DNA of 64,000 bases from a virus (Duplodnaviria > Caudoviricetes), in the IMG/VR virus record IMGVR_UViG_3300050132_000146, positions 1,105 to 65,104 of that record; one strand, 5' to 3'. Shown here piece by piece: positions 7,188 to 46,928 of the stretch. The translations under genes and the position numbers were made by a program. The notes beneath the pieces were generated by a model. It was not told where the DNA came from. It was given only the letters and a program-made list of their open reading frames with translations, and did no database searches. Numbering within the stretch: position 1 is the first letter of the stretch; each line of letters starts with the position of its first letter.

Positions 7188-8264
7188 TTCGACAACCGAG
7201 TCGATTACTTGCTCTGGTGTGATTGATGCGATCACGGTGCAGAACTTTGCGTGGGTGCAGGGGCGGTTGGGCGGGAATACGATGTTTTGCGAACTATGAA
7301 AGAAACACGGGCTACAACCACCCTTTGGCTCAAGTACCGTACAGAAGTCGGGATTTGTCACCCTAAGAGCAGACGGGAATGAACCGAAGATCGCTACAGT
7401 TGGTATACTCAGCGCCTGGGCTACGTGGAACAAGGATGAATCCGGCGTAAGCGCCACGTCACAGGTTTGTAGAACCGCCACGGATTCACGCATACCCAAC
7501 CCATCGTTGGCCAAGTTGGTGCATCCAGGAAGGTCCACCTTCATTTGTCCAGGCTTACCGAACATGAAAACCTCGTGACCCATACTGGCGAGTGTGGCGC
7601 AGACGGTGGATAGTAGAGATGGGTGATAGGATCGTACAGGGCTGCTTGCAGCGACTTGGACGCCAATCCTGAGTGATTGGGTTCGCGGATAGCGGCGAAG
7701 CGCCTCAATGGCCTCTAATGGGCTTACATGCCATTCCAGGCGGCGTGAGTCGAGCGTTATTCCGATCTTCTGCGCGAATAGGTCTACAGCGTGGATGTGT
7801 TCGGCTTCGGGGTTGTGCTCGATTAGGTTTTCATAGAAATACACAGCATCTCCTGGCTCAACAATGGATTGAGGAATTGGGGATGACATGACTTCACAAT
7901 TTACTCCATCGAAAGCAATCTTGTACTCATCGCCACAGACAACCACAACCCGGCACCTTGGCCACTTTGTTTTAAGTGCACGAATGGTTGGACCCATGAA
8001 AAGACAATCTCCGTGGCCACCATATCTCCACAAGTACACTGTATGACCGTTCATGGAACGACGTGGTTGGATGGGAATATCGAACGCCTCGTTTACGTGG
8101 GTCATGGACAAAAGGGATCGGCTCTTTCCGTCTGGACACGGAATTAACTGTGTGTCCTGAAGCATCATTCCTGATGTCTGACTGGTCAGCCAGTACCGCT
8201 CCCCTGGCATCATGGTTGCGCCGCCAAAGACTGGAACCGGGTAATCGACTGAGACTAAATTCAT
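7152..8264 (-). CDS. Glycosyltransferase family 9 (heptosyltransferase-like)
   Basis: GT9 motifs 'RYGGHGDCLFMGPTIRALKTKWP' and 'CDVALTPDSSLFHVAQALSIPTVAIFGS', plus a C-terminal 'CSPC...C...C..SITPEQV'. Confidence 0.9.
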   Translation of the reverse strand: MNLVSVDYPVPVFGGATMMPGERYWLTSQTSGMMLQDTQLIPCPDGKSRSLLSMTHVNEAFDIPIQPRRSMNGHTVYLWRYGGHGDCLFMGPTIRALKTKWPRCRVVVVCGDEYKIAFDGVNCEVMSSPIPQSIVEPGDAVYFYENLIEHNPEAEHIHAVDLFAQKIGITLDSRRLEWHVSPLEAIEALRRYPRTQSLRIGVQVAASSPVRSYHPSLLSTVCATLASMGHEVFMFGKPGQMKVDLPGCTNLANDGLGMRESVAVLQTCDVALTPDSSLFHVAQALSIPTVAIFGSFPSALRVTNPDFCTVLEPKGGCSPCFFHSSQNIVFPPNRPCTHAKFCTVIASITPEQVIDSVVELLGRQKHPAID

Positions 8265-9447: not shown

Positions 9448-10143
9448 GTGTTTATTTCTTGCTGAATACTTTTGTCCAATGGAGAATGAGGCTGGTTGGC
9501 GTGGGGTTATCCCCATCCGTAATCCGACAGCAACATGTTTTTCCTGGTCTTGTGCATTCGATCCACCAGCATCCATCCCATGCCAAACACGGCTTCTGCC
9601 CAATCCTGCATACTGCATGTTGGTTGAAGTGGTTTACTGAGGTTTGGGTGGCGTCTAGCGATTGCACGGCTGCATTTAAACATAACGGACGGTGTTGTCA
9701 AGGGGAATTTGCACGGACGTTTGTTGTGCGGTTTTTGCTCATTTGCATGGACGGTGCTGGCCCTGGGGCGATTTTGCGAATGTCGAATTATATTCAATAA
9801 GACAAACAAACATAAAGTATTATAATGTATCACAAACACCCCTTGCCAGAATGTTAGAATTTCCATAAATTAATTTAAAAATGAATGAAAATATCGCATG
9901 ACGAACGGGAAACCCTCTCTACCTTGTATTCACCGGAAGGCTTCATCGCCTCCCCTATATGCGGATCACCCCTAACACGGTGGACACCCCCATGTCATCA
10001 AGCCAAAGCGCGAAAGCGAGGTGCGGCTAACCCTATAATTTCCAGCGATGTTTTCAGGCACGGCTTGCGCATCTGATTTCTGCCATCCCCTAATAGCTTC
10101 ATGGTGAATCTATCGGATGGCAGAATTCAGAACACATACCCAT

Positions 10144-10596
10144 ATGAAAACGAACATCGAAAACGCCAACGCCCTTCGCGAATACGCTCACAAAGCTGCA
10201 AGCACTGCGGGCCGAATCGCCAAGGCTGATCGCCAGCACAATGACCTTCAAACGGCCATCACTGGCAAGGCAACGATTGACAAGTACAACGCGCACAAAT
10301 CCCGTACTCCCCTCGAAATGGAACACCTGGGTTTTATGAAGGCCGTTGCGCTTATCAACAAGCTCGCCAAGGTGAATCTTGCCGATTGCCTTGCCCCTGC
10401 CCCTGAAAACATCGCCGCCGAAACCGAGGCCCCTGAGGTTGTCGCTCCGGCCCATGAGGTGGCCGAAACCGAGGCCCCTGAGGTTGTCGCTCCGGCCCAT
10501 GAGGTGGCCGAAACCGAGGCCCCTGAGGTTGTCGCTCCGGCCCATGAGGTGGAAACCCCCCGCAAGCCTGCCAAGCCTGCCAAGGTGATAGCCTAG
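10144..10596 (+). CDS. Hypothetical early protein with an acidic Pro/Ala/Glu repeat tail
   Basis: First ORF of the plus-strand early block, containing 3x AETEAPEVVAPAHEV. Confidence 0.75.
   Translation: MKTNIENANALREYAHKAASTAGRIAKADRQHNDLQTAITGKATIDKYNAHKSRTPLEMEHLGFMKAVALINKLAKVNLADCLAPAPENIAAETEAPEVVAPAHEVAETEAPEVVAPAHEVAETEAPEVVAPAHEVETPRKPAKPAKVIA
10417..10551 (+). repeat. Three perfect 45-bp tandem repeats (coding)
   Basis: gccgaaaccgaggcccctgaggttgtcgctccggcccatgaggtg at 10417, 10462 and 10507. Confidence 0.95.
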
Positions 10597-11772: not shown

Positions 11773-12111
11773 ATGAACATCGAAGACCTTACTCTGCGTG
11801 AAATACGCGAAATTGCCGCAATCACATGCCCTCAAAACCGTAGTCCGCAACCACATCCATACAAGATTGGCGGGTTGTACTTCATCCGAACCGTCACCAT
11901 GTCTCATGCTGGCCGTCTGGTTGAGGTGGGTGATCATGAATTGATCCTTGAAGACGCATCGTGGATTGCTGATACCGGGCGACTCACGCAAGCGCTCGCA
12001 ACAGGTCAATTCTCTGAGGTGGAGAAATTCCCCGTTGGTCGCGTAATCGTGGGTCGCGGTGCCCTCGTGGACGCGTGTGAAATAACCGTGATTCCGGTCT
12101 CGCAGAAATGA
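11773..12111 (+). CDS. Conserved small beta-barrel (Sm/SH3-like) phage protein, DUF6948-like
   Basis: 'YFIRTVTMSHAGRLVEVGDHELILEDASWIADTGR' matches a widespread phage family I recognise. Confidence 0.75.
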   Translation: MNIEDLTLREIREIAAITCPQNRSPQPHPYKIGGLYFIRTVTMSHAGRLVEVGDHELILEDASWIADTGRLTQALATGQFSEVEKFPVGRVIVGRGALVDACEITVIPVSQK

Positions 12112-12347
12112 TTGCCTCTGTAGCAAGGGCGGGACTAGACTCGTCGCGGTCGGGGTCGGCGTCGTGGTCGCGGTCGCGGTCGGGGTCGGCGTCGTGGTCG
12201 GGGTCGCGGTCGGGGTCGGCGTCGTGGTCGCGGTCGCGGTCGGGGTCGGCGTCGTGGTCGCGGTCGCGGTCGGGGTCGGCGTCGTGGTCGCGGTCGCGGT
12301 CGGGGTCGCGGTCGGGGTCGTGGTCGTGGTCGCGGTCGGGTTCCTAA
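12108..12347 (+). CDS. Ser-X dipeptide repeat micro-protein (SRSRSGSASW)n
   Basis: ATGA-coupled to the upstream gene. An 11-aa leader is followed by Ser at every second residue. Confidence 0.6.
   Translation: MIASVARAGLDSSRSGSASWSRSRSGSASWSGSRSGSASWSRSRSGSASWSRSRSGSASWSRSRSGSRSGSWSWSRSGS
12141..12341 (+). repeat. Low-complexity 6-bp periodic / 30-bp higher-order repeat
   Basis: TCG alternates with CGG/GGG/GCG/TGG. The unit tcgcggtcgcggtcggggtcggcgtcgtgg occurs about 5 times. Confidence 0.9.
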
Positions 12348-13837: not shown

Positions 13838-14394
13838 TCATCTACACCAAACACATCTGCGGAGTCTGGTTCGCGTCCTACCAGTCAGACATGGGTAATG
13901 CATCTGGCGCTCAGACTGAGGCTGATGCGATACTTCGGTTAATTGAACTTAACGGACTTGTTCGTCTATGAGAATCACAAAAGATATTACTCCTGTCCTG
14001 TTGCACCCACTCCTGACTGCACGCCTAGAGCGTGAGCGTCAGTCCTCGCCATTCTACAAACTCGGCCACACCTTCGTCGCCTTAGTGGCGTGGATTCTGT
14101 GCCTTGCAATCCTGAGTTTAGGTCTGGTTGCTTGCTTTGCGCCATGACCGCATTCTTAGTTATCCTCCTAATATGGGCCATCGCTCACTTTATCTTGGCA
14201 GGTCTCCCTAGCATCGACAACTAACATGAAACCCACCCAGCCATCGCTCCGTTCCGTAATCCTCTCCACGGACTACGCCGCAGCGGTGGCTGAGTGGCTG
14301 GCCAGCCCTATTTCCGTAGTCTCAGACGCTGCCAAGCACATCCAGGTGTGTTCTGACCGCATGAATAGGGTAAAACCCGTTAAAGCGCATTGTA

Positions 14395-14496
14395 GAGAGA
14401 AGTAGAGTGGGCGTGTGAGATTGGGATCTGTGGCCCCGACTAAAATCGGTACCTGAAAAGACCAATTACAAGCACGCCCACCCTACTGCCCTCAAA
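14395..14496 (+). other. Structured RNA element upstream of the Ubl gene
   Basis: AGTAGAGTGGGCGTG pairs with CACGCCCACCCTACT (14 of 15 bp) and encloses small hairpins. Confidence 0.55.
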
Positions 14497-14570
14497 ATCA
14501 GTTGTCCTCAACACATTACGTGACGCCGTTCCTGCGCTTGGATGTAAAAGTTAAAGACAAACACACACAT

Positions 14571-14888
14571 ATGGCTACCCACACACTCCAGACGATCTTC
14601 GTGAACATCAACGGCAACAACCAGCCGTTCCCTGTCACGCATGGTACCACCGGCAATTCCTTCCTGGGCAACTCCACCAACCGCGATCTGTTCCAGATCC
14701 CGGCCAATGTGGACGTTCTCGTGAACGGCGTCGGCGGCAGCGCTGGCGATCTCGGCCTCCGTGCCGGTGACGTGCTGACCTTCCAGACGAAGGCCAGTTC
14801 CAAGGCCGCCAAGGGCACCCTGCCCGCTGGCGTCAAGGTGAAGAAGGCCGCAACCGCGACCAAAAAGCCCGCCAAGGCGAGCAAGTAA
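14571..14888 (+). CDS. Ubiquitin-like (beta-grasp) protein with a Lys/Ala-rich C-terminal extension
   Basis: 'VDVLVNGV...LRAGDVLTF' is a ThiS/MoaD-like pattern. The gene heads an operon with E2, E1 and JAB genes. Confidence 0.75.
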   Translation: MATHTLQTIFVNINGNNQPFPVTHGTTGNSFLGNSTNRDLFQIPANVDVLVNGVGGSAGDLGLRAGDVLTFQTKASSKAAKGTLPAGVKVKKAATATKKPAKASK

Positions 14889-14924
14889 GCCATACGAGCA
14901 GTCTAGACTGCCCAGTAGCGCTAT

Positions 14925-14960
14925 GGGGCGAATCCAAGTAGGGTTCGCCCCTTTTTCTTT
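14925..14960 (+). terminator. Intrinsic terminator between the Ubl and E2 genes
   Basis: GGGGCGAATCC-AAGTA-GGGTTCGCCCC followed by TTTTTCTTT. Confidence 0.75.
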
Positions 14961-14989
14961 CCAAACCAGATACCAGAACCACCAAGTAA

Positions 14990-15841
14990 ATGCAAAAATC
15001 ATCAGTACTAGCAAACTGGCCCGTGAGCCAGCAATCCATCGAACAGTTCGATGTTGTTGATTTTGACGGAAGTGTTCGTGCACCAGCGGCGACATTCCGA
15101 AAGACAACCACGTATGAGTTCGTCGGTCTTGGTGGTATCCCTACCACTCAACAGTCTTTCATGTCTATGACACCAATGCTTTCAATCCCATTCAGTGAAC
15201 TCGGAATCGCCGAATCCGGCAACGCTGAGTTCAAGATGTTCTTGTCCAAGCATGAAACGATGGGAAATATCTTCCTCATCAAGATGCACATGATTCGTCT
15301 GAACACGAAGTTCTCGGTAATCCAGGACAATGTAACCACCCCAGGAGTCGATGGTGCTGATGCAACGATTACACAAACATCACTCATCGTCCCGAACTAC
15401 ACATCAGGTGTAGGACTTGCTCCAGTCTGGACTATGCCAGAGGCATCCGATTACGACTTCTGGCTTCTGTCGAAGTGTCCGTACACAGATCGTGGACAGG
15501 CACATTTCTTCGCGGCCAAGAAGTCGAACAAGATGACTATCGGTAGACCTCCGCTTCCAAACTGCTTTGGCGACACCCGCTTCTGCATTGGAAATGAGGA
15601 ATGGTGCCGACGTGGCGCATCTGATCCAATCGAGGTCGCCAAGGCTGCGGTAAAGGCAGCATTCATCAATCAGTGGCAGACGGACCTTCTTACCGAACAG
15701 GCCAAAGAGGTTTCGAAGCGAATCTTCCGGTTCGATATTGAGACACAGAAACAGGTACCAACTGTTCCAAACTTCGCAACTGACTGCGGAGCTGTCGCCC
15801 ATCAGGCAATCAGCAATATCATGTCAATGGTTGTTGAATAA
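14990..15841 (+). CDS. Prokaryotic E2-like (UBC-fold, PRTRC protein B-like) protein
   Basis: 'RPPLPNCFGDTRFCIGN' resembles the E2 PN-x5-(I/F)C catalytic signature, and the operon context fits. Confidence 0.7.
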   Translation: MQKSSVLANWPVSQQSIEQFDVVDFDGSVRAPAATFRKTTTYEFVGLGGIPTTQQSFMSMTPMLSIPFSELGIAESGNAEFKMFLSKHETMGNIFLIKMHMIRLNTKFSVIQDNVTTPGVDGADATITQTSLIVPNYTSGVGLAPVWTMPEASDYDFWLLSKCPYTDRGQAHFFAAKKSNKMTIGRPPLPNCFGDTRFCIGNEEWCRRGASDPIEVAKAAVKAAFINQWQTDLLTEQAKEVSKRIFRFDIETQKQVPTVPNFATDCGAVAHQAISNIMSMVVE

Positions 15842-15842: not shown

Positions 15843-16085
15843 ATGAAAGTACAACTTCACGGTGCCACTCGTGAGCAATTCGAGATTGGCCAAACATTCG
15901 CATTCACATCCTGGCAAAAGCGGTCAGATCCAGGTAAAACGCTGCGTCAGATGGAAAACATCAAAAAGCGTAGTTCATCTGCCGAATTCTCATTGTCGGA
16001 GGCATTCCCAACAGGAGTTCCTGTTCCGGATATTACCAACATCCAGAAACCCCAACGCCTAGAATCAGAGCCACTATTCCCATGA
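15843..16085 (+). CDS. Small hypothetical protein in the Ubl operon
   Basis: Fills the E2-E1 gap and overlaps the E1 start (ATGA). Confidence 0.6.
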   Translation: MKVQLHGATREQFEIGQTFAFTSWQKRSDPGKTLRQMENIKKRSSSAEFSLSEAFPTGVPVPDITNIQKPQRLESEPLFP

Positions 16086-16795
16086 CCCCAAAACACATCC
16101 ACGTAATCGGTTGCGGAGGCGTTGCCTCGCACCTACTCACTGCGCTCATTCAGACCGCAGAATTCGCCATGGACTGTCCCACCATCCACTTCTGGGATGG
16201 TGACAAGTACGAGGACAAGAATATCGCTCGCCAGTTCCTTGCAAAAGGACGTGAGGGTCAATCGAAGTCTGAAGTATTCGCTGAGTACTATGGCGCTCTC
16301 TACGGAGGAACCATCATCGCTCACGATCAGTATTTCTTCGCTGACACATACACCATCGAAGAGAACTCCTTGATCATCTGCGTTGTGGACAACCACCGTG
16401 GACGGCGTGAATGCAGGGAATCAGCAAGGCGCTCAAGTTCCATACTTGTTTCTGGTGCAAATGAGACGGAATCAGGTGAGGCATGGGTGTGGCTTCGTGA
16501 GAACGAGGGAAAGAATACTGATCCTTGGGTTCGCTATCCTGACCTTGAGACAGACGTTGGTATTGACCCGCTTCACGCGCAGGGTTGTCAGTCCGAACTT
16601 GCAATCGTGGACAATCCACAGATCCCTGCTGGTAACATGCTCACTGCGGCGTGTATCGTGGGCCTTATTCAGGGAACGATCCTTGGTACCGAGGAGTATT
16701 GGGGCTACAGGTACAACCCAGCAGAGTACCGTTTCGTGCGGAATGGTCTCTTTGGTAAAACATTCGCACAACTGGAGACCACGACTACGCTATGA
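16082..16795 (+). CDS. ThiF/E1-family adenylyltransferase
   Basis: 'VIGCGGVAS', 'DGDKYEDKNIARQ', 'K' and 'ICVVDNHRGR'. Candidate catalytic Cys in 'DPLHAQGCQ'. Confidence 0.9.
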   Translation: MTPKHIHVIGCGGVASHLLTALIQTAEFAMDCPTIHFWDGDKYEDKNIARQFLAKGREGQSKSEVFAEYYGALYGGTIIAHDQYFFADTYTIEENSLIICVVDNHRGRRECRESARRSSSILVSGANETESGEAWVWLRENEGKNTDPWVRYPDLETDVGIDPLHAQGCQSELAIVDNPQIPAGNMLTAACIVGLIQGTILGTEEYWGYRYNPAEYRFVRNGLFGKTFAQLETTTTL

Positions 16796-18729
16796 ACCAT
16801 AATCCGCACGGAATTACAAATGACCAGATCCCGGAAGGTTGGAGACTTCTGACGGTAGAAGAACTTAGTGTTCTCGCAACAAGAGCGTATGGTGCGCAAT
16901 ATTGGGATTGCGATAATGGTGAGTTTAGGTTTAACTCATCATTCAGAGATCGATCAGGATCAAACGTTGGTGTAGCAACTACCTCAATCGTGCCCAACGG
17001 ATGGTCGGCAACAAACCAAATACACGAACCAATGCAAACAAACCGAATGACAGCAGATCAGTATGTTGACTGCTACAATCCAGATCAAGTTCCACTTGAT
17101 TCTGTGCCAGATGGGTGGAGGATCATGTCCAGAACTGAAGCCACACCAATAAGGTTGGTTGATGGAGCTAAATATTGGTACGGTGCACCACGAGTTCCGG
17201 TCTTCCGATTTGCATCGGAAGAAAGAAACGGAATAGGAACAAGCCAAGTTGGAGGTTCCGACACCTGCATCGTTCCCATCTCGTGGGTTGATCCAAGGAC
17301 CGTTGTGACACCAAACCGAATGACCCAACAGCAGTTCGATGACTCGTTCAACCCAAGCGATCTCACACTCGATCAGATCGAAGATGGTTGGACCATCGTA
17401 AGTCGAACTGTTTCTGAACCTGGCGAATGGATACACGGAGCTGAGTGGTGGGATGGTGATGCGTGGTCTGATTCTGAGGGTACCCTTGGACGTGGGTGTT
17501 ATGGTGATACTGTTGTAACCATTCGAATCAGAATTAACCCACAGACTGAATCGGTTGATGACGTGCCCGAACCAGAGCCTGAGCGTCACTTCAACATCGT
17601 CGCCGAAGTCCAACGAATCGAACCATCCTTCACAATGGCTGAAATCCTTTCCACGTTCGCAACGTGTGGTGAAGAGTCGCAAGGAAGGGTGGATAGGTTG
17701 TTGGCTAGAGACCGTCAGTCTGATTATGACTCGTGGGAACGCTCGGCTCGCATTAACTCTGGTAGGCGTTCAACAAGAATCGTATGCGCCATTCAGTGTG
17801 CACTTCTCGCATTCGCTCACCCTGAGATCACCCAGGTCACACCAATTGCCACGCCAACCCCTCCGGTGGCACCAGCAACGCCTCCGGTGGGCTTGCGTGA
17901 ATATCACAACCCTCGTAATGTCACTCTGGACGACATGGATGGGTGGACGCTTTGTCGGGTCGGTGAGCATATTCAAGGCAGTCGTATTGATGGTGCGCAA
18001 TACTGGAATATTGATTCAAGAACATGGAGATATCAGTATTCCAGTGATCGCTACACCCTCTTCTACCCAGAAGAAACCATTCGTAAGCCCGGATCTATGG
18101 GTCCGCCACCAGACCCTAACTCACCGGACCCTATTGTTCGCCTGACCATAGCGTGCCGTCGAAAGACGACTCCCGACATCAAATCGGCCATCTTCACAAA
18201 CCCCGCATCCTCAATTGTCTACACCCTGGCAAGGATAGAGATCAGTGAGAATGGTTGGTACAACACTCTGGAGGAGCAGCCTAAGACCCATGATGAATGG
18301 GTTACGTGGCTTAATGCTTGTACTACCGAGGCCCCGCCACCTCCAGTCGTTGAACCTCCGCAACCGAATGATGATGGGGCACCCGCGTTCACTGTTCGAG
18401 TAACATGGAATAATACATGCGTATTGATTCATCATCAGCCATCCACTACTCCGTTTTCGTCAGAAGTTATTGTGCCAAATCACATTGCTCGCCGTGGAGC
18501 TGATGCGGTATATGATTATATTAATAGAGAGAGGAGTCTTGCCCCGGTTTCGGGAGAAACCGTTCTTGGTAGTATTGAGCACAATTCAACATACAGATAC
18601 AATGAACGTGATCTTGAAATCCCAATGTTCAATCCTCTTGAAGAATGGCAAAGAGCCAATGGAATCGTCGAAGAAACTGACGAGGAAGAATCAGAAGATG
18701 AACACGAGGACGAAGACGAAGATATTTAA
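16792..18729 (+). CDS. Large acidic protein with four copies of an NP..(D/E)GW..GAx(Y/W)W domain
   Basis: ATGA-coupled to E1. Repeats start near 16798, 17074, 17347 and 17905. Acidic tail. Confidence 0.8.
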   Translation: MNHNPHGITNDQIPEGWRLLTVEELSVLATRAYGAQYWDCDNGEFRFNSSFRDRSGSNVGVATTSIVPNGWSATNQIHEPMQTNRMTADQYVDCYNPDQVPLDSVPDGWRIMSRTEATPIRLVDGAKYWYGAPRVPVFRFASEERNGIGTSQVGGSDTCIVPISWVDPRTVVTPNRMTQQQFDDSFNPSDLTLDQIEDGWTIVSRTVSEPGEWIHGAEWWDGDAWSDSEGTLGRGCYGDTVVTIRIRINPQTESVDDVPEPEPERHFNIVAEVQRIEPSFTMAEILSTFATCGEESQGRVDRLLARDRQSDYDSWERSARINSGRRSTRIVCAIQCALLAFAHPEITQVTPIATPTPPVAPATPPVGLREYHNPRNVTLDDMDGWTLCRVGEHIQGSRIDGAQYWNIDSRTWRYQYSSDRYTLFYPEETIRKPGSMGPPPDPNSPDPIVRLTIACRRKTTPDIKSAIFTNPASSIVYTLARIEISENGWYNTLEEQPKTHDEWVTWLNACTTEAPPPPVVEPPQPNDDGAPAFTVRVTWNNTCVLIHHQPSTTPFSSEVIVPNHIARRGADAVYDYINRERSLAPVSGETVLGSIEHNSTYRYNERDLEIPMFNPLEEWQRANGIVEETDEEESEDEHEDEDEDI

Positions 18730-18753: not shown

Positions 18754-20295
18754 ATGATCTACATCAACGACAAGAATGAGGTTCTCGAACGTCGAGAAAC
18801 CTCCATTGGTTCAGCCTTCGTTTCAACCAGGATTAAGGCAATCCCAATCGCACAACGAGCCTACATCAACTTCCAAAAAAAGATGCCGCTCGCAATGTGG
18901 CGTCAGATGATTGGATTCTTCCTGTGGTCTCAAAAGGAGCATAAGTCCGAGGCACAGGTCACTGGATTCATCCACCAAGATACTGGTGAGTGGTTCATGA
19001 TTCCTTTCCACCAGATCGGTATTGGAATGACAACCAAGGAGGTTGAGGGTGGTGACAATATTTCCCTATGGGAGCAAATCATACAAGCCGGATTCGGTCC
19101 AAACCCAATCTTCACCGGCCATCACCATTGTACTTCGTCTGCGTTCGCCTCTGGTACAGACACTACCGACGAGTACACGAACAAGCCCCAAGGAGTACAC
19201 ATCACAATCGGCAAGTTGGACTCAAACCCACTTGACCTACATTGCCGAGCAAAGCTGTCGTTCATGGGTCAGTTCAATCAGGAAACTGGAGAGGTAATCT
19301 CACCTGGAAGCTCAATCCTTCTACCATCTCACCCTCTTGAGTTCGTTGAAACCGGACTTCGTAATGAGGATGTTGGCGGAATGAATGACGTTCTCATCAA
19401 GCAGATCACTGAGTTCTTCCTGCTCAAGAAGGAGGAGTGGGAATTCCCAGAGGAGTGGAAGGCGCGAATGACAAAACAGTCTTACGCCACACACAGCACA
19501 GTCACATACACACCAGGGGGTCATCTATCCTGGAAGGACAGCAAGAAGCGCCCAAAGTCCCGGTGCCCGGCGAATACGAAGTATCCGCTGGTTCTGGTAA
19601 ACAGCGTGGTAAACATCTGCGCAAATCCGCTAAATACAACCGCATGGTTCGACGCGGTAAGAGAGGCGGTCACTAAGAAGGAGCCAGAGAAGCTCGAAAA
19701 CTTCTTCAATGAAATGTGTGATCGGTGCGGATATGCCAAACCAAATAAGGAATGGTGTTGGGCGTGGCTTGAAGCGTGGGAGATTGCTGACCTTCTCTTG
19801 AATTGCAAGAGTGGCACCGACTATGTATTTGACAACCTTCCTGGAGAGTACTACGATGCGCTTCTGGTTAGCGTTGTTGTGGCCATGTATGAGTCGGACA
19901 TCAATGCAGAAGCGTTCCGCGCATACTTCACCAACAACAAGGCTCTTGAGAATACCGGTAATGACCCAGCTTTCAAGGAGTGCGGAATCCACACGCTCAA
20001 TATCGGCAAGAAGCCAAATACTGGCATCTGGAATCTGTATCAGAAGATGTACGACAAGGCATCCAACGAGTTCATTGATCGTCACTCAACCGTGAACAAG
20101 GAGGCTCAGACAATCTTTGAGGCCAAGTTTAAGGAAATGGGAGTTCCAAAGGAAGAACTTGTGTTCGATGCCGGTGAAGACCCAGAGTCCGAATTCTACG
20201 GATACTCTGCCGAAGAGATCGCTCAAATGGAAGGGTATGGACTCACATTCCCTGATTACCAGGGAAGCAGCTCATACGCAGGAAGAATCCTCTAA
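18754..20295 (+). CDS. JAB/MPN metallo-isopeptidase (PRTRC protein A-like) with a long C-terminal region
   Basis: Glu in 'KSEAQV' and the HxH-x7-S-x2-D motif 'GHHHCTSSAFASGTD', followed by 'GVHITIGKL'. Confidence 0.85.
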   Translation: MIYINDKNEVLERRETSIGSAFVSTRIKAIPIAQRAYINFQKKMPLAMWRQMIGFFLWSQKEHKSEAQVTGFIHQDTGEWFMIPFHQIGIGMTTKEVEGGDNISLWEQIIQAGFGPNPIFTGHHHCTSSAFASGTDTTDEYTNKPQGVHITIGKLDSNPLDLHCRAKLSFMGQFNQETGEVISPGSSILLPSHPLEFVETGLRNEDVGGMNDVLIKQITEFFLLKKEEWEFPEEWKARMTKQSYATHSTVTYTPGGHLSWKDSKKRPKSRCPANTKYPLVLVNSVVNICANPLNTTAWFDAVREAVTKKEPEKLENFFNEMCDRCGYAKPNKEWCWAWLEAWEIADLLLNCKSGTDYVFDNLPGEYYDALLVSVVVAMYESDINAEAFRAYFTNNKALENTGNDPAFKECGIHTLNIGKKPNTGIWNLYQKMYDKASNEFIDRHSTVNKEAQTIFEAKFKEMGVPKEELVFDAGEDPESEFYGYSAEEIAQMEGYGLTFPDYQGSSSYAGRIL

Positions 20296-28323: not shown

Positions 28324-28988
28324 GAAAAATGAAGAAAGTTCTAGACAAATGTGAAAGATGTGAGAAGTTGACTCGTTGTACTCAACATGAGGTTCTCTAT
28401 TCGCTAGTACCGGACAGAAATCTGAGATGATCGAATAGATTGAACCAGGACAGCCCAGACTTTAGCGAGTACTAGTCGCTAGAATCTGGGCTCTTCTATA
28501 CTCACGACCCAGACATTACTAACAGCGGCATTCTTGGCTGGCCGCTATATAAACCATACGAATCAAAACAACTCTGAAGGAGCACCGAACACTCGCCATG
28601 TAGCGAACCAGTAGACCCCACAGAGGCACCGCGCAGATTAGTTCTTTGCGGTATCAGCACGAAAACGTGTTGGAGTGGCCCACCGTCATTCTGACAGGCG
28701 CAGTGTTAACGGAGGTTTGGAGATGATTTACTCGATCATTGAGAGTTCCCTGTGCTGAGTCCACCACGTTCACCAAGACTGGCATGATTCCCGTCAAAAC
28801 ACATTGAGGATCAATTCTGAGAGAACATAGCCTTGTCGGGCTCAAGACACCAAAACAGAAAATCCTACTAGCAGGCTCCGTGACCTTGGCTCCAAACCAG
28901 AAGATCAGACTACTCGGAATACAGTCTATCCTATTAAAACAGGACGACTTTCCAAGCCTCACCATGCCCATTCACCACCCAGAAGCCA

Positions 28989-36968: not shown

Positions 36969-38924
36969 ATGAGTACAACACAAGCACCAAAACGAGCGAG
37001 TAAGCTCAAAGCAAAGAAGCCAGAAGACCGGGAGCCAACTAAACCGAAGATGCTTATCTTTGGACAACCGGGCGTAGGTAAATCACAACCACTGTCGGCC
37101 AATATCCTAACTCCATCTGGCTGGGTAAAAATGGGAGACATTAAGGCCGGTGATATGGTCATCTCGGTAGACGGAAATCCAACAAAGGTTCTTGAGGTTT
37201 ATCCTCAAGGTGAACTCGATGTGGTTGAATTGGTTTTCCATGATGGATCAAAAACACGGTGTTCAAAAGATCATCTTTGGCAAACAAGGACGAAGCTTGA
37301 TAGGGCGGCGAAAAGATTGGGATCAATTAAAGAGACTTCTGATTTAATTAAAAGTATTGAATCCTGCCATTCGATCCCGGTTGTCAGTGAAGTGTATTTT
37401 CCTGAGAATGAGGTACTAATCCACCCATACATCATGGGATGTTTGCTTGGTGACGGATGCCTTCGTGGCGACGATATAACCATCACTCAGGCGGATGAAG
37501 ATCTGTTCAATAATGTTGAAAAACTTCTTCCAGATGGCTTTAAGCTATCCAAAAGAAGCCATCTCACACGATGCGAAACAAGGTCTATTACAACTCGTCG
37601 TGGAGATAAAAACCCATTCACAGAATACCTCCGATCTGTTGGCCTGATGGGTAAAAAATCACTAGATAAGTTCGTACCAACTGAATATCTCATTAACTCT
37701 GTTGAAAATCGCATTGCCCTATTACAGGGTCTTCTCGATACTGACGGAACTGTTGGAAGTAGGGGTACCACCGTGAGCTTCTCATCAGCCTCAGTTAATC
37801 TTGCAAATGCGGTTGCATTTATCGTCCAATCACTGGGCGGGGTTGCGTTTCGATCAGTAAGAAGCAAGAGGGGCTATAAGAAGGATGGAATATACCATGA
37901 GTGTTTGCCATCATTTACAGTAACCGCTAATCTTCCAAACCATATTGCTCCATTCGCTATTGCAAGGAAGTCTGGTAAAGTTGTTGAAAAAACAAAATAT
38001 CAACCATCTAGATTCCTGAAGGAGATTAATGAGTCTGGTAAAGAGTTGTGTCAGTGTATTTCCGTGGACCATCCAACCAGCCTATATGTAACCGACGACT
38101 TTATCGTCACTCATAATACCTGGTTTTCACTGGACTTCCCAGGATGTTATTACATTGACTCCGAAGGCGGTTCAGCACGAACCCACTACATGGACAAACT
38201 CAAGGCGTCCGGTGGTGAGATCATGGGACCAGAAGAAGGGGCGAATGACTTCGAGACAGTCCTTGGACAAGTCCAGGCCCTGGCTACCGAGAAGCATGAG
38301 TTCAAGACACTTATCATTGACTCCATCTCCAAGCTGTTCAACTCAGCCGTAACTACCGAGCAGGAACGCCTTGGTGACAAGGATGCCTTCGGTGCCTCCA
38401 AGAAGCCTGCGGTTGCTTACATGCGCCGTCTGGTGAACTGGATTCAGCGCCTGGATATGAATGTCATTCTCGTTGCCCACCAGAAGGATGAGTGGGGAGT
38501 TGATGCAAAGGGTGAGCGTTGCGCCATCGGCCATACGTTCGATTGCTGGGACAAGCTGGAGTATGAGCTTGATCTTGTGCTTCAGTTAATGAAACAGGGC
38601 AGTAGCCGTGTGGCGTCAGTTCGCAAGTCCCGCCTTCTTGGCTTCCCTGATAAGGATCGCTTCCCAATTAGCTTTGACACCTTCGCTGAGCGATATGGTA
38701 AAGATGTGATTGACAAGGAGGTGAAAGCGGTTATTCTGGCCACGGCTGAAGAGGTTTCTGAGATTGTCCGTCTCGTTACTCTACTGAAGCTTGGCGAAGA
38801 CGAGATTAACAAATGGTGGACCAAATGGAACGTTTCCGATTGGACCGAAATGAGCGACGAACAGGCTGCGAAGGCAATTAAGTTTTTGCAGGAAAAGATC
38901 AACCCAACAGTAAAGGATAAATAA
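36969..38924 (+). CDS. AAA_24/Sak4-like ATPase (recombination) containing an intein
   Basis: P-loop 'GQPGVGK|T' is split by the intein. Also 'YIDSEGG', 'LIIDSIS' and 'ILVAH'. Confidence 0.88.
   Translation: MSTTQAPKRASKLKAKKPEDREPTKPKMLIFGQPGVGKSQPLSANILTPSGWVKMGDIKAGDMVISVDGNPTKVLEVYPQGELDVVELVFHDGSKTRCSKDHLWQTRTKLDRAAKRLGSIKETSDLIKSIESCHSIPVVSEVYFPENEVLIHPYIMGCLLGDGCLRGDDITITQADEDLFNNVEKLLPDGFKLSKRSHLTRCETRSITTRRGDKNPFTEYLRSVGLMGKKSLDKFVPTEYLINSVENRIALLQGLLDTDGTVGSRGTTVSFSSASVNLANAVAFIVQSLGGVAFRSVRSKRGYKKDGIYHECLPSFTVTANLPNHIAPFAIARKSGKVVEKTKYQPSRFLKEINESGKELCQCISVDHPTSLYVTDDFIVTHNTWFSLDFPGCYYIDSEGGSARTHYMDKLKASGGEIMGPEEGANDFETVLGQVQALATEKHEFKTLIIDSISKLFNSAVTTEQERLGDKDAFGASKKPAVAYMRRLVNWIQRLDMNVILVAHQKDEWGVDAKGERCAIGHTFDCWDKLEYELDLVLQLMKQGSSRVASVRKSRLLGFPDKDRFPISFDTFAERYGKDVIDKEVKAVILATAEEVSEIVRLVTLLKLGEDEINKWWTKWNVSDWTEMSDEQAAKAIKFLQEKINPTVKDK
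37083..38117 (+). mobile_element. Intein with LAGLIDADG endonuclease (class 3 WCT signature)
   Basis: Starts 'SQPLSANILTP'. Block B 'DHLW', endonuclease motifs 'GCLLGDG' and 'LQGLLDTDG', block F 'CQCI'. Ends 'VTHN|T'. Confidence 0.92.
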
Positions 38925-42860: not shown

Positions 42861-45236
42861 ATGGCACCCTTCCAAAAGATCACGACAACAGAAGACATGC
42901 TTGGTGACATCACCAAGGTCACAATGCCGTTCTCGGACGAGGCCGAGATGGGCATCCTGTCCTGCATCATCCAAGATCCTCGCCACTGCCTTGACGAAAC
43001 CCGCACCGCAATCTCCCCAGACGCCTTCTACCACCAGAAGAACCGGCATGTTTACGAGGCTATCCTGACCCTCACCGACACAGGCAAGCCGGTGGACATT
43101 GTGACGCTTACCACTGAGCTTCGCGCTCAAGGTCTACTGGAAAAGGTTGGCGGCGGTGCTCAGATTTCAGAGATTTACACCTTCATTCCGGTTTCGGCTC
43201 ACTTCCCGTTCTACCTAGCAATCCTCAAGGAGAAGCATTGTTCGCGTCAGGCCGTACGTATCGGCGCAGAGATCATCCAGATGGCTCGTGATTCGCACGA
43301 GGACGCGGCTACGGTAGTGGCTGAGACTGACAGGCTGGCAATGCAAATTCACACGGATCATGATTCAGGTCAAATTGATACCATGGGTAGTCTGGTGGCG
43401 GAAGCGTTTGAGTATATCGAAACTCAGATGAAGAATCCGGGTGGGATTCCCGGACTGACGACCGGGATTGCTCAGCTTGATGACAGAACTGGCGGAATCG
43501 TTCCAGGAGAGGCTTGGATCATGGCTGGTGGAACCAGCGACGGTAAGGCGCAGCCTTTAGATGCGAAGATTTTAACACCGAATGGATTTGTTTTCATGGG
43601 TGAAATTAAGGTTGGGGACTTTGTGATTGGAGTTAATGGGTGTCCGGTTGAGGTACTGTCTGTTTATCCACAGGGAATTAAGGAGGTGTTTAGGGTTCTA
43701 ACGAACGATGGATACTCGACAGAATGCTGTGATGAGCATTTATGGTTAACGAGCACATGGAAAAATAGGTGTAAAAAAACCTCAGAACAAGTGAGGCCTC
43801 TTTCAGAAATACGAAAGACACTGTTTGCATCTGGAAGAACCAGGCTTAATCACCAGCTACCGGATCTTGCTCCAGTACAGTTCAATTCAAACAAAACACT
43901 ACCGATGAATCCATGGCTTCTTGGGGCGCTTCTTGGAGATGGGTGCCTTTGTGCAGGAAATATCAAATTCACAAATCAAGATCAAGACATTGTTGAGCGA
44001 GTTAGGAAATGTATTCCAGATTGTGATATAATGACGTGTGATCCCAATAGGCCTATAGAATTTAGGGTGAAGAGAAAGCAAAGAAATAACCAGCAGTCTG
44101 AAACAAAATCTATCATAGAATCTCTTGGGCTTCTCGGAACGGATAGTTCCACCAAGTTCATTCCCAATGAATACAAGTTAGCCTCAGTTGAGGATCGTAT
44201 TGAAATTTTGCGAGGACTCTTCGATACAGATGGAAGCGTAATGAAGGGAATGTCAGTTGATTATAGTACCTGCTCAAATAAACTTGCAGATGATGTGGTT
44301 TGGATCGTCCAGTCACTTGGGGGAAGCGCCAGAATCAGGGAGAAGTGGCCTACCTGCATGTATAAAGGTGTAAAAGTCACTGGGCAGCTATCGTATAGAA
44401 TCGTCGCCAAGTTCCCCAAACACATAATCCCGGTATGGACTGTGAAAAAGAGAAAAAGGTGGACCGGAAGAACTCGCGGTGGTCACAGATTCATTGAATC
44501 TGTCACTCCTATTGGACAAAAAGAGTGTCAGTGCATAAAGGTCACTGGAGGGCTCTACGTGACCGACGGGTTCATTGTGACCCACAATACCGCTTTGGCG
44601 ATGCAGGTGGCCCTGGAAATGGCCCTAGCGGGAGCGCCAGGAGCCTACTACCTCTGCGAAAGTTTGAAAGTGAAGTGGACCATCCGACTTTTGGCTTGTT
44701 TGAGCCGGGTTCCGATGAAACATATTCTTCGTGGAACACTCACCAGGGAGATGCAGCAACAGGTCGGTGTCGCTGCCATGAAGCTCCAAAAGCTCCCCAT
44801 CACCCTCAGGCACAAGCCAGGGATTGAGGTAACGAAGATGGTTGCTGACATTCGGATGCTGAAGCGCAAGCTTGGAATCAAGTGGTACGTGGGCGACTAC
44901 CTTCAGCGCATCAGCAACTCTGGGTGCAAAGGAAATCGTCAGGAGTATATCGCTGAGATTAGCAAGAGGCTCACGGACGTTGGGTCTGAGCTTGGGGTTG
45001 GGTCTATAGTTCTGAGCCAGCTTAACCGAGAGGGTCAAGTGCGTGAATCAGATGCCCCCACCCATGATGCCGACGTTGTGATTACATTGTCGGTACCAGA
45101 AGAGAAGCAGAACGGGAAAATGGTTAGGAACGAGGCAAAGAGGGTGCTGAGTATTGGGAAAGCTAGGAACGAGGAGCGCGGGCGGACCATAAACCTCATG
45201 TTCCAGGGTGAGATCCAAAGATTCACTGCGGTTTAG
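42861..45236 (+). CDS. dnaB: Replicative DNA helicase with an intein
   Basis: N-domain 'EAEMGILS' and 'VDIVTL', then 'GLTTG..LD', P-loop 'GGTSDGK|T', 'DYLQ', 'LSQLNRE' and 'DADVVI'. Confidence 0.92.
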   Translation: MAPFQKITTTEDMLGDITKVTMPFSDEAEMGILSCIIQDPRHCLDETRTAISPDAFYHQKNRHVYEAILTLTDTGKPVDIVTLTTELRAQGLLEKVGGGAQISEIYTFIPVSAHFPFYLAILKEKHCSRQAVRIGAEIIQMARDSHEDAATVVAETDRLAMQIHTDHDSGQIDTMGSLVAEAFEYIETQMKNPGGIPGLTTGIAQLDDRTGGIVPGEAWIMAGGTSDGKAQPLDAKILTPNGFVFMGEIKVGDFVIGVNGCPVEVLSVYPQGIKEVFRVLTNDGYSTECCDEHLWLTSTWKNRCKKTSEQVRPLSEIRKTLFASGRTRLNHQLPDLAPVQFNSNKTLPMNPWLLGALLGDGCLCAGNIKFTNQDQDIVERVRKCIPDCDIMTCDPNRPIEFRVKRKQRNNQQSETKSIIESLGLLGTDSSTKFIPNEYKLASVEDRIEILRGLFDTDGSVMKGMSVDYSTCSNKLADDVVWIVQSLGGSARIREKWPTCMYKGVKVTGQLSYRIVAKFPKHIIPVWTVKKRKRWTGRTRGGHRFIESVTPIGQKECQCIKVTGGLYVTDGFIVTHNTALAMQVALEMALAGAPGAYYLCESLKVKWTIRLLACLSRVPMKHILRGTLTREMQQQVGVAAMKLQKLPITLRHKPGIEVTKMVADIRMLKRKLGIKWYVGDYLQRISNSGCKGNRQEYIAEISKRLTDVGSELGVGSIVLSQLNREGQVRESDAPTHDADVVITLSVPEEKQNGKMVRNEAKRVLSIGKARNEERGRTINLMFQGEIQRFTAV
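43548..44588 (+). mobile_element. Ala1 intein with LAGLIDADG endonuclease (class 3 WCT signature)
   Basis: Starts 'AQPLDAKILTP', with 'EHLW', 'GALLGDG', 'LRGLFDTDG' and 'CQCI'. Ends 'VTHN|T'. Confidence 0.92.
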
Positions 45237-46915: not shown

Positions 46916-46928
46916 CTAGTTTGAAGTA

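What the first reader, a model, noticed from the sequence alone, without database searches (positions are those of the whole stretch)
14760..14960. Ubl has no terminal GG, carries a histone-like Lys/Ala tail and is followed by its own terminator
Seen: after the last predicted strand the protein reads FQTKASSKA-AKG-TLPAG-VKVKKAATATKKPAKASK*. It ends in Lys with a ~26-aa basic extension. The gene has strong C-ending codon bias, and a strong terminator (14925-14960) separates it from E2. Inference: the Ubl is made in excess as a pro-form that the JAB must trim, after ...SSKA, ...AAKG or ...PAG. An Ala terminus has precedent in Cap2-mediated CD-NTase conjugation. The basic tail could bind nucleic acid or supply lysines for poly-Ubl chains.
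Basis: partly seen in the sequence, partly recalled or inferred. Interest (0 to 1): 0.7.

Follow-up and report, generated by a model that had tools for sequence, protein, structure and literature searches.

The report
Phage ubiquitin-like protein with removable tail
A phage gene encodes a ubiquitin-like protein whose relatives almost all stop at a conserved Lys-Ala end, so its extra 26-residue lysine-rich tail is probably a cap that the phage's own protease cuts off before the protein can be attached to targets.

Summary
ORF 14571-14888 encodes 105 aa ending ...FQTKASSKA79 plus a 26-aa tail with 8 Lys and no acidic residue. It has the highest GC3 in the phage (0.84 against a mean of 0.53). An 11-bp-stem intrinsic terminator follows at 14925-14961.

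With an alignment, the protein folds as a beta-grasp, and its best matches are MoaD, ISG15, SUMO and ubiquitin.

It opens a Ubl / E2-like / ThiF-type E1 / JAMM peptidase cassette. I found this cassette, in this order, in 50 uncultured-phage loci and almost nowhere else.

In 53 related loci the Ubl ends x-K-A or x-K-G. The stop codon follows directly in 44 of them. Tandem poly-Ubl forms join at KA|A and carry 1-3 cap residues. Long tails are rare and unrelated to each other: some basic, some acidic.

The mature end is therefore most likely A79, not G82 or G87, and the tail is a lineage-specific propeptide.

A complex model scores 0.86 (best control 0.00). It puts Ubl residues 70-81 against the JAMM catalytic residues. 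Cleavage itself is not shown.

A terminator after the Ubl recurs in 21 of 53 loci.

Verdict: a new variant of a known kind, namely pro-Ubl processing in a phage-borne family that ends in Ala.

The parts
14571..14807 (+). Ubl core, residues 1-79, ending in the family motif A-S-S-K-A79
   Evidence: AF2 model built with a 20-sequence alignment: strands 6-13, 16-23, 47-51 and 68-73, helices 28-40, pLDDT about 90. Foldseek hits are MoaD, ISG15, SUMO and ubiquitin. 18 true homologues were found by exhaustive phmmer. K78 is invariant and A79 nearly so.
14808..14888 (+). 26-aa Lys/Ala-rich C-terminal extension (residues 80-105) plus the stop codon; proposed propeptide
   Evidence: pLDDT about 50, so predicted disordered. 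8 K and no acidic residue. No Pfam match. Absent in 44 of 53 related loci. Same codon bias as the core, GC3 0.88.
14925..14961 (+). Intrinsic terminator between the Ubl and the E2-like gene
   Evidence: A different-sequence hairpin plus T-run sits at the same place in L002. In all, 21 of 53 related loci have one, against a background of 0.018 per 150 nt.
14990..15841 (+). E2-like protein, 283 aa, with motif LPN-x7-C199-x-G
   Evidence: N191, C199 and G201 are invariant in 51 of 51 unique cassette homologues. ESM Atlas nearest clusters carry Prok-E2_D in 14-33% of members. No Pfam or PDB sequence hit. The fold was not tested.
16082..16795 (+). E1: a ThiF-type adenylating enzyme, 237 aa
   Evidence: Pfam ThiF, 37 bits against a cut-off of 28.1. 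PADLOC E1-E2 models match its N-terminus. The G-x-G-G loop is kept in 62 of 64 and C169 in 64 of 64 homologues.
16792..18729 (+). 645-aa protein of unknown family between E1 and JAB, with an acidic C-terminus; possible adaptor or substrate
   Evidence: No Pfam, PHROG or PADLOC hit. Among the loci, a homologue was found only in L002.
18754..20295 (+). JAMM/JAB metallopeptidase, 513 aa, with the catalytic domain in the N-terminal ~190 residues
   Evidence: E66, H123, H125, S133 and D136 (E...HxHx7SxxD) are invariant in 7 of 7 homologues. Atlas hits point to Prok-JAB clusters. 1 of 10 cassette relatives scores 24.8 bits on Prok-JAB, cut-off 25. The complex model with the Ubl scores 0.86 against 0.00 for the best control.

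Best explanation
ORF 14571-14888 is the modifier of a phage-encoded ubiquitin-like conjugation cassette (Ubl, E2-like, ThiF-type E1, an orphan protein, JAMM peptidase). In this Ubl family the reactive C-terminus is not Gly-Gly. It is an invariant Lys followed by Ala, or less often Gly. In the window protein that end is K78-A79.

The 26 residues after A79 are a lineage-specific, disordered, Lys/Ala-rich extension that blocks the carboxylate the E1 must adenylate. The protein is therefore made as an inert pro-form. The cassette's JAMM peptidase, encoded by the cassette's last gene, cuts between A79 and A80. After that, E1 (Cys169) and E2 (Cys199) can pass the Ubl to targets that remain unknown.

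The Ubl gene is a highly expressed unit of its own. It has extreme C-ending codon use and is closed by an intrinsic terminator that lets only part of transcription reach the enzyme genes. The modifier is therefore made in excess over its enzymes.

Shown by sequence and models: the beta-grasp fold, the family's K-A end, non-conservation of the tail, the catalytic motifs, the terminator, and its recurrence in relatives.

Inferred: cleavage by JAB, adenylation at A79, and excess expression.
For: Fold. AF2 with an alignment gives a beta-grasp core at pLDDT about 90. Nearly all of the 50 Foldseek PDB hits listed are Ubls (MoaD, ISG15, SUMO, ubiquitin), with target-normalised TM of 0.6-0.68 for the stand-alone Ubl chains of similar length.

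Family end.
- In alignment A2, K78 is invariant in 20 of 20 sequences and A79 is nearly so.
- In 53 related loci (47 unique), the penultimate residue is K in 47 of 47. The last residue is A in 42 and G in 5. The stop codon follows directly in 44 of 53.
- Eight two-domain proteins and one three-domain protein keep the full motif at each junction (..SKA|A..) and end with 1-3 cap residues, as polyubiquitin does.

Tails differ. They are 8 aa basic (L002), 36 aa basic (P0013), 30 aa acidic (P0014), 30 aa mixed (L076) and 7 aa (L012).

JAB.
- The JAMM motif is invariant.
- The complex model scores ipSAE 0.86 against 0.00 for the best of 3 controls. That mark was reached by 58 of 80 solved complexes and 2 of 110 mismatched pairs. 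The runs share at least 76% of contacts, and partner pLDDT is at least 75.
- The interface holds JAB residues 66, 123, 125 and 133-136 and Ubl residues 70-81.

Precedent.
- BilC trims BilA after its conserved Gly, with up to 9 extra residues (PMC10557695).
- The Bub JAB domain cuts BubAB after G229 (PMC11601596).
- Cap2 substrates end in Gly or Ala (PMC10097602).

Expression.
- GC3 is 0.84, about 3.9 sd above the genome mean.
- C3 of the Ubl exceeds that of the enzymes in 46 of 50 loci.
- The terminator is described. A terminator after the Ubl occurs in 21 of 53 loci, against an expected 0.018 per 150 nt.
Against: - There is no experiment and no RNA data.
- JAB is just as conserved in the 44 loci whose Ubl needs no trimming. 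Its core role must therefore be something else, probably deconjugation. Trimming here could instead be done by a host protease, or not happen at all.
- JAMM-ubiquitin complexes are solved, so the high complex score may reflect likeness rather than binding by this particular pair. The output also does not give the residue that sits at the zinc.
- An E1 acting on a C-terminal Ala preceded by Lys has not been tested. The alternative that the end is K78, with Ala as a universal one-residue cap, is not strictly excluded.
- The E2-like protein has no sequence match to any E2 family.
- The 53 loci are related to one another, so the terminator statistics overstate independence.
- 32 of 53 loci have no strong terminator by my scan.
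Confidence: 0.6

Rival explanations
1. The tail is kept and functional. The protein would be a beta-grasp domain fused to a basic, H1-like nucleic-acid-binding tail that works without being conjugated. Or its unprocessed form would have a role of its own, for example tethering to phage or host DNA or RNA.
For: The tail has 8 Lys of 26 residues and no acidic residue. Two of the closer single-domain relatives also have basic tails: L002/P0005 with RKARKDRK, and P0013 with a 36-aa Lys/Ala/Pro-rich tail. Codon bias in the tail is as strong as in the core, so it is translated sequence under the same pressure.
Against: The tails share no alignable sequence. One relative has an acidic tail. 44 of 53 loci have none. 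There is no Pfam match. The motif right before the tail is the family's natural end, and the model places it at the JAMM site. With the tail left on, the E1-E2 cassette would have no usable substrate.
Confidence: 0.15
2. Processing exposes a canonical glycine. The cut would fall after ...AAKG82 or ...LPAG87, as in ordinary Ubls.
For: Known bacterial Ubls (Bil, Bub) end in a conserved Gly. 5 of 47 unique family members end in K-G. The window has K81-G82.
Against: In the alignments the family's terminal K-[A/G] column pair is K78-A79. Residues 80-87 align with nothing, and L002's tail has no Gly. pLDDT falls below 50 at residues 81-83. Confident JAB contacts stop at residue 81.
Confidence: 0.08
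3. The tail is a neutral accident. A lost stop codon would have extended the ORF into low-complexity sequence, with no role. Whether it is removed would not matter, or the Ubl would be inactive in this phage.
For: The window is an outlier in its family. The tail is low-complexity and predicted disordered.
Against: The tail has the same extreme codon bias as the core. The sequence is identical in contigs from two other studies. Extensions arose independently in several relatives. All catalytic motifs of the cassette are intact. An unremovable tail would disable the whole cassette.
Confidence: 0.12
4. This is not a protein-conjugation system. The Ubl would be a ThiS/MoaD-type sulfur carrier, or an assembly chaperone like lambda TAPI, working with a ThiF enzyme.
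For: The only curated family match in the cassette is ThiF. The best PDB fold hit is MoaD. ThiS scores weakly in 4 of 10 family members.
Against: The cassette has no sulfur-transfer or cofactor genes. The neighbour with an invariant PN...C motif and the JAMM peptidase are kept in 50 loci. The poly-Ubl forms fit a modifier. Sulfur carriers need a Gly-Gly end, a point I state from established knowledge of ThiS and MoaD.
Confidence: 0.05

Closest known systems
Bil (BilABCD) bacterial ISG15-like antiphage system (Chambers et al., PMC10557695, passages read; Hor et al., bioRxiv 10.1101/2023.09.04.556158, passages read)
   Same: It has four separate genes for Ubl, E2, JAB peptidase and E1. The JAB (BilC) pre-processes the Ubl by removing non-conserved residues after the reactive end, and it also deconjugates.
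   Different: Bil is a chromosomal defence operon, whereas this cassette sits in phages. BilA ends in a fully conserved Gly with at most 9 extra residues; here the end is Lys-Ala with a 26-residue tail. [quoted passage not shown] No PADLOC model other than the E1-E2 group matched any cassette protein.
Eukaryotic ubiquitin precursor genes: polyubiquitin with a cap residue, and ubiquitin fused to basic ribosomal proteins (established knowledge, recalled; not from a call)
   Same: The family comes in the same three gene forms: a single unit, head-to-tail repeats ending in 1-3 cap residues, and a unit fused to a basic C-terminal extension. All of these would need an endopeptidase to free the reactive end.
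   Different: The reactive end is K-A rather than G-G. The extensions are short, disordered and not conserved, and they are not ribosomal proteins. Processing has not been shown.
Type II CBASS Cap2/Cap3 (Jenson et al. 2023, PMC10097602; Ledvina et al. preprint)
   Same: An E1/E2 activity conjugates a substrate whose C-terminal residue is Gly or Ala, and a JAB peptidase reverses it. PADLOC E1-E2 models match the window's E1 at E = 3e-7.
   Different: In CBASS the E1 and E2 are fused in one protein, and the substrate is a CD-NTase, not a beta-grasp protein. No CD-NTase gene was found in this cassette.
Bub (6E/DUF6527) operons (Ye et al. preprint, PMC11601596, passages read)
   Same: A JAB domain cleaves a precursor (BubAB) to release a Ubl, and the Ubls have several beta-grasp domains.
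   Different: Bub has Ubl-E2 and JAB-E1 fusions, an E1 without a catalytic Cys, and a Gly end. Here the genes are separate, and both the E1 and the E2-like protein have an invariant Cys.
Caldiarchaeum subterraneum ubiquitin and Rpn11 (PMC6043591, abstract seen in the listing; PDB 6fno among the fold hits)
   Same: A prokaryotic operon in which a JAMM peptidase processes a Ub precursor and also deubiquitinates.
   Different: It is archaeal, has true ubiquitin with a Gly-Gly end, and includes a RING E3.

Membership tests
Beta-grasp ubiquitin-like fold | beta-beta-alpha-beta-beta grasp topology | tested here: met
   The AF2 model built with 20 sequences has core pLDDT about 90. The Foldseek PDB top hits are MoaD, ISG15, SUMO, ubiquitin and NEDD8. 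The viral library gives phage and giant-virus Ubls.
Pfam ThiS / ubiquitin / Multi_ubiq families | Score above the curated cut-off | tested here: not met
   The window protein has no hit. Among 9 relatives, ThiS reaches its cut-off in 2: P0018 at 24.5 bits and P0002 at 24.2 bits, cut-off 22.5.
Canonical conjugated Ubls (ubiquitin, SUMO, NEDD8, BilA, BubA) | Reactive C-terminal Gly (usually Gly-Gly) | tested here: not met
   The family end is K-A in 42 of 47 unique members and K-G in 5 of 47. The window has A79.
Pro-Ubl precursor processed by a cognate peptidase | Non-conserved residues after a conserved reactive end, with a peptidase in the same operon | tested here: met
   The cleavage itself cannot be tested with these tools.
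JAMM/MPN+ metallopeptidase | E...H-x-H-x7-S-x2-D zinc motif | tested here: met
   E66, H123, H125, S133 and D136 are invariant in 7 of 7.
Pfam Prok-JAB (PF14464) | Score above 25 bits | tested here: not met
   The window has no match. 1 of 10 cassette relatives scores 24.8 bits. The Atlas gives leads only.
E1 / ThiF adenylating enzymes | ThiF Rossmann domain with a Gly-rich ATP loop; a catalytic Cys in true E1s | tested here: met
   Pfam ThiF at 37 bits, cut-off 28.1. G-x-G-G is kept in 62 of 64 and C169 in 64 of 64. That C169 is the catalytic residue is inferred.
E2 / UBC fold (including Pfam Prok-E2_D) | UBC fold with the (H)PN motif and a catalytic Cys about 8 residues later | tested here: inconclusive
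   The motif [LI]-P-N-x7-C-x-G has N, C and G invariant in 51 of 51. There is no Pfam or PDB sequence hit: 0 of 10 relatives, and nothing by profile. The Atlas feature hit scores 0.96 to clusters carrying Prok-E2_D in 14-33% of members.
Bil system (BilABCD) | BilA with a conserved Gly end; a large IAD-AAD-CYS E1; a bacterial defence locus | tested here: not met
   The end is Ala. The E1 is 237 aa. No PADLOC model other than E1-E2 matched any of the five cassette proteins. The cassette is found in viral contigs, and in only 1 locus from genomes of 185,579 species.
Intrinsic (Rho-independent) terminator | G+C-rich hairpin directly followed by a U-run | tested here: met
   Function in vivo cannot be tested with these tools.
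Histone H1-like / bacterial histone-like Lys-Ala tails | Match to a curated family, or demonstrated nucleic-acid binding | tested here: not met
   The tail gives no Pfam hit at E up to 10. The resemblance is one of composition only.

The most novel reading that the evidence does not exclude
Tailed phages carry their own complete ubiquitin-like conjugation system. Its modifier ends in an invariant Lys-Ala instead of Gly-Gly, and its genes mirror the three eukaryotic ubiquitin gene forms: single, poly-Ubl with a cap, and Ubl fused to a basic tail. In this phage the JAMM peptidase would release two products from one abundant precursor. One is an activated modifier. The other is a free 26-residue H1-like basic peptide that acts on nucleic acid or on the acidic tail of the neighbouring 645-aa protein. 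The delay before the late-made peptidase accumulates would time the start of conjugation during infection.
Probability: 0.15. Interest if true: 0.85.

Novelty: new variant of a known kind. Interest (0 to 1): 0.62.

Why it matters
Bacterial ubiquitin-like conjugation (CBASS Cap2, Bil, Bub) is currently understood as antiphage defence, with a Gly (rarely Ala) reactive end. This locus shows the phage side of that picture.

- **Distribution.** A Ubl / E2-like / E1 / JAMM cassette occurs in at least 50 uncultured-phage loci. It matches no PHROG family and almost no curated Pfam or PADLOC family. It is essentially absent from deposited phage genomes, and genomes of 185,579 bacterial and archaeal species gave only one locus.
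- **Testable chemistry.** The family's invariant Lys-Ala end is a clean prediction about E1 specificity. It also has a practical consequence, which I infer from trypsin specificity: trypsin would leave a single Ala (+71 Da) on modified lysines.
- **Natural experiment.** The window's tail, together with the poly-Ubl and capped relatives, shows how precursor processing gates a Ubl pathway.
- **Open question.** What phages conjugate, and to what end, is unknown. Counter-defence, virion modification and exclusion of rival phages are all possible.

Tried and rejected
**Searches and models that gave nothing**
- The single-sequence AF2 model of the Ubl was useless (pLDDT 40.6).
- The word-indexed homologue search with the single Ubl found nothing.
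- PHROGs matched none of the five cassette proteins.
- PADLOC matched only the E1.
- PDB sequence searches found nothing for the JAB, the E2-like protein and the E1 as single sequences, nor for the JAB and E2-like profiles.
- Pfam Prok-E2_D, Prok-JAB and Multi_ubiq gave no match on the whole virus record.
- GenBank phages: blastn found none. tblastn with the window JAB found none. tblastn with a marine-clade JAB found one weak hit.
- A viral-contig scan with the E1 and one with Ubl alignment A1 found no relatives. The JAB alignment did.
A3 found none. A5 found one MAG contig.

**Dropped hits**
- P0016 and P0021 were dropped as unrelated repetitive proteins after I read them.

**Expression**
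- No RNA holder is listed for this stretch, so Ubl and E2 transcript levels could not be compared.
- Laying contigs showed no variants and says nothing about expression.

**Other checks**
- Rfam matched nothing near a gathering score in 14000-15100.
- The antisense ORFs over the Ubl gene (14508-15107 and 14516-14893, minus strand) have no Pfam match. I take them for by-products of the G+C-rich third positions.

**Literature**
- Six literature searches listed no paper on a phage-encoded Ubl-E2-E1-JAB cassette or on a Lys-Ala Ubl end.
- One search was uninformative.
- Supplementary tables of the Bil and Bub papers could not be read and might list phage-borne homologues.
Full report
**What is there**

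The window is a 65,104-bp IMG/VR virus record with direct terminal repeats. It is a tailed phage: it encodes a portal, a large terminase and a DnaB-like helicase. DNA runs that hold it are peat metagenomes.

The finding lies at the 3' end of a small + strand ORF. The listed ORF starts at TTG 14502. Homologues begin MA(T).. at the position of ATG 14571, so I take 14571-14888 as the gene, giving 105 aa.

After ...TFQTKASSKA79 come 26 residues, AKGTLPAGVKVKKAATATKKPAKASK, with 8 Lys and no acidic residue.

The terminator is as described. The stem at 14925-14951 has 11 pairs, 8 of them G-C, with a loop of 5, followed by TTTTTCTTTC. The folding energy is far below that of shuffles (z = -5.3). Of the + strand sites listed for bases 1-60000, it is one of four with a stem of at least 11 pairs and at least 8 G-C pairs.

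Codon bias is extreme. GC3 is 0.84 and C3 is 0.55, against 0.53 +/- 0.08 and 0.28 +/- 0.09 for 95 ORFs. The tail is as biased as the core.

Contigs from two other studies' runs reproduce the tail-coding stretch without a difference.

**Is it a Ubl?**

Pfam, PHROGs and PADLOC do not recognise the protein, and a single-sequence fold failed.

An exhaustive phmmer search with residues 1-87 found 20 proteins at E <= 0.001. I rejected two after reading them, because they are unrelated repeats. The other 18, plus one more from a profile search, form a family.

With this alignment, AlphaFold2 gives a beta-grasp. Strands are at 6-13, 16-23, 47-51 and 68-73, with helices at 28-40. pLDDT is about 90 in the core and about 50 from residue 81 on.

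Foldseek against the PDB returns almost only ubiquitin-like proteins: MoaD, ISG15, SUMO, ubiquitin, NEDD8 and Caldiarchaeum ubiquitin. E-values are modest (from 3e-3), and target-normalised TM is 0.6-0.68 for the stand-alone Ubl chains of similar length. The viral library gives uncharacterised phage proteins and giant-virus ubiquitins.

ThiS scores weakly in 4 of 10 family members and reaches its cut-off in 2.

**The cassette**

Four genes follow the Ubl downstream.
- **E2-like protein (14990-15841).** It has no family hit.
- **E1 (16082-16795).** It passes the Pfam ThiF cut-off (37 bits against 28.1).
- **Orphan protein (16792-18729).** It is 645 aa with no family hit.
- **JAB (18754-20295).** This 513-aa protein contains GHHHCTSSAFASGTD, which fits H-x-H-x7-S-x2-D.

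Seven homologues of the 513-aa protein keep E66, H123, H125, S133 and D136 invariant, which is the JAMM signature.

A metagenome contig (L002) has the same gene order, with 40-50% identical proteins.

Scanning IMG/VR with the JAB alignment gave 76 loci. In these, an HMM of the Ubl domain finds a Ubl on the same strand upstream of the JAB in 52.

Of the 24 loci without a Ubl hit, 21 are cut by the contig end less than 2.1 kb before the JAB. The other three (L071, L073, L075) have room but no hit.

Fifty loci, counting L002, have hits for Ubl, E2-like, E1 and JAB in that order.

Catalytic features are conserved across these loci.
- The E2-like protein keeps [LI]-P-N-x7-C-x-G, with N191, C199 and G201 invariant in 51 of 51 unique sequences.
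- The E1 keeps its G-x-G-G loop in 62 of 64 and Cys169 in 64 of 64.

The E2 assignment still rests on three things: this motif, the gene's position, and ESM Atlas feature similarity to clusters that carry Prok-E2_D in 14-33% of members. No HMM or PDB profile search supports it, and I could not fold it.

The cassette is nearly confined to uncultured phages. The deposited-phage searches gave nothing for the window's own sequences and one weak hit for a marine-clade JAB. One MAG contig turned up among genomes of 185,579 species.

**Where the Ubl ends**

In the 20-sequence alignment, K78 is invariant and A79 nearly so.

Among the 20 proteins (30 domains) from the protein searches, the residues left after the last K-[A/G/N] motif number as follows:
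- 0 in 3 proteins;
- 1 in 10;
- 2 in 2;
- 3 in 1;
- 8, 26, 30 and 36 in one protein each.

Eight proteins have two domains and one has three. This is the layout of polyubiquitin genes (recalled knowledge).

In the 53 cassette loci (47 unique Ubls), the penultimate residue is Lys in 47 of 47. The last residue is Ala in 42 and Gly in 5. The stop codon follows directly in 44 of 53 loci.

The Gly of the K-G members aligns with A79, not with the window's G82.

The long extensions share nothing:
- RKARKDRK (L002);
- a 36-aa Lys/Ala/Pro-rich tail (P0013);
- a 30-aa acidic tail (P0014);
- a 30-aa mixed tail (L076);
- TAELAHA (L012).

So the natural end of this family is K-A. The window's tail is a rare add-on, and the proposed cuts after AAKG or PAG have no support.

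**Does the JAB trim it?**

Three lines point that way, and none is proof.

First, tailed, capped and tandem forms need an endopeptidase, and the JAMM enzyme is the only peptidase in the cassette.

Second, a complex model of JAB(1-260) with zinc and the full Ubl scored ipSAE 0.86 in the median run, against 0.00 for the best of three controls.
- That mark was reached by 58 of 80 solved complexes and 2 of 110 mismatched pairs.
- The runs agree in at least 76% of contacts, and partner pLDDT is at least 75.
- My own alignments and the riding zinc make these counts only rough.
- The confident interface includes JAB residues 66, 123, 125 and 133-136 and Ubl residues 70-81, and nothing beyond residue 81.
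- Because JAMM-ubiquitin complexes are solved, the pass may reflect likeness rather than binding by this pair.

Third, there is direct precedent.
- BilC cuts BilA after its conserved Gly, where up to nine non-conserved residues follow (PMC10557695, passages).
- The Bub JAB domain cuts BubAB after G229 (PMC11601596, passages).
- A C-terminal Ala is used by some Cap2 substrates (PMC10097602, passages).

Against this, the JAB is equally conserved where the Ubl needs no trimming. Its core role is therefore presumably deconjugation, and trimming would be a secondary use.

**Expression architecture**

L002 has a different hairpin (12 pairs, 10 G-C) plus a T-run at the same place after its Ubl.

By my own scan, 21 of 53 loci have a hairpin with a stem of at least 10 pairs plus a T-run within 150 nt of the Ubl stop. 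Such sites occur at 0.018 per 150 nt across the same loci. The binomial P is about 3e-23, but this is overstated because the loci are related.

The Ubl uses more C-ending codons than its enzymes in 46 of 50 loci.

Together these fit a modifier made in excess over its enzymes, with partial readthrough at the terminator. No RNA run holds the locus, so this remains inference.

**Mechanism proposed**

The phage makes much pro-Ubl, and the tail blocks the A79 carboxylate. The JAMM peptidase, encoded by the last gene behind the terminator, cuts A79|A80. The ThiF-type E1 then adenylates A79 and takes it on Cys169. The E2-like protein takes it on Cys199 and passes it to unknown targets. The JAB also reverses conjugation.

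In this lineage the tail would add a delay or a safety catch. The basic character shared by three of the closer relatives (window, L002, P0013) hints at an extra role, but nothing tests it. The tail matches no family.

**Comparison and novelty**

It works like Bil, and like eukaryotic ubiquitin precursors, but it is not a member of Bil, Bub or CBASS.
- The reactive residue differs.
- The E1 is a minimal ThiF type.
- The genes are unfused.
- No defence-system model fits beyond the generic E1 match.
- The carrier is a phage.

Pro-Ubl trimming by a JAB is known. An Ala end has precedent outside beta-grasp proteins.

Three things appear new within the limits of six literature searches and without access to supplements:
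- a phage-borne beta-grasp modifier family with an invariant Lys-Ala end;
- its poly-, capped and tailed gene forms;
- the long Lys/Ala tail seen here.

I rate it a new variant of a known kind, with interest about 0.6. The cassette as a whole is more interesting than the tail.

Noticed in passing
window 14395-14494 (+), and L002 about 7835-7895: A ~100-nt hairpin lies about 75 nt upstream of the Ubl start. Its arms GTAGAGTGGGCGTG and CACGCCCACCCTAC enclose about 55 nt. The 186-nt leader folds at -54 kcal/mol, z = -2.6. L002 has the same arms with two changes on both sides (G-C to A-T, C-G to T-A), by my reading. The arm motif occurs 3 times in the window against 0.21 expected. It could be a leader or processing element, or a U-less terminator of the upstream gene. 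It matches no Rfam family.
   Followed up: partly
window 16792-18729 (+); L002 10355-11611: A 645-aa orphan protein sits between E1 and JAB. By eye it has four repeats around a D/E-G-W motif, and its C-terminus is strongly acidic (EETDEEESEDEHEDEDEDI). Among the fetched loci only L002 has a homologue, which also ends acidic. Both of these phages have a basic-tailed Ubl. Several other soil-clade loci have an unassigned gap of 0.4-1.8 kb between E1 and JAB. The protein could be an adaptor, E3 or substrate, but with n = 2 the tail pairing may be chance.
   Followed up: partly
window 14781-14807 against L002 8203-8229: The 27 nt encoding FQT(K/R)ASSKA differ at only 2 positions between the two phages. 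The rest of the gene is much more diverged. This is conservation beyond the protein level, or chance.
   Followed up: no
L002 8363-8521 (+): A small ORF lies between the Ubl terminator and the E2-like gene. Translated by eye, it has CxC...CxxC spacing, which is zinc-ribbon-like. The window has only 30 nt at that place.
   Followed up: no
window 14898-14911: A perfect 14-bp palindrome, GCAGTCTAGACTGC, lies between the Ubl stop and the terminator. Contigs of run X1 break there, most likely an assembly-graph effect of the palindrome.
   Followed up: no
window 10117-10596 (+) and 12108-12347 (+): Two ORFs contain tandem peptide repeats: APEVVAPAHEVAETE three times, and SRSGSASW many times in a stretch of 68% G+C. 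Their function is unknown.
   Followed up: no
window 50679-52197 (-): The two other ORFs of 100 codons or more with GC3 of at least 0.70 (0.70 and 0.75) are adjacent on the minus strand. The 371-aa one has only weak PHROG hits, to a tail fiber family and an unknown family. They are probably abundant structural proteins.
   Followed up: partly
window 36969-38924 and 42861-45236 (+): Two large proteins hit overlapping sets of PHROG primase, helicase and terminase-like ATPase families. The second also carries a DnaB-like domain. They may be paralogous replication ATPases.
   Followed up: no
window 28412-28505 (-), 46844-46916 (+), 53185-53259 (+): Three tRNA genes: Thr(AGU), Glu(UUC) and Met(CAU). 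The Thr call is 94 nt long and may be unusual or a false call.
   Followed up: no
L003-L078 (IMG/VR), L079: The largest clade of the cassette has Ubls ending ...ITLE(Q/R/K)QASSKA with the stop codon next. In this clade E1 and JAB abut or overlap. One copy lies on a 19-kb contig of a Sneathiella MAG, possibly a phage contig binned with the MAG.
   Followed up: partly
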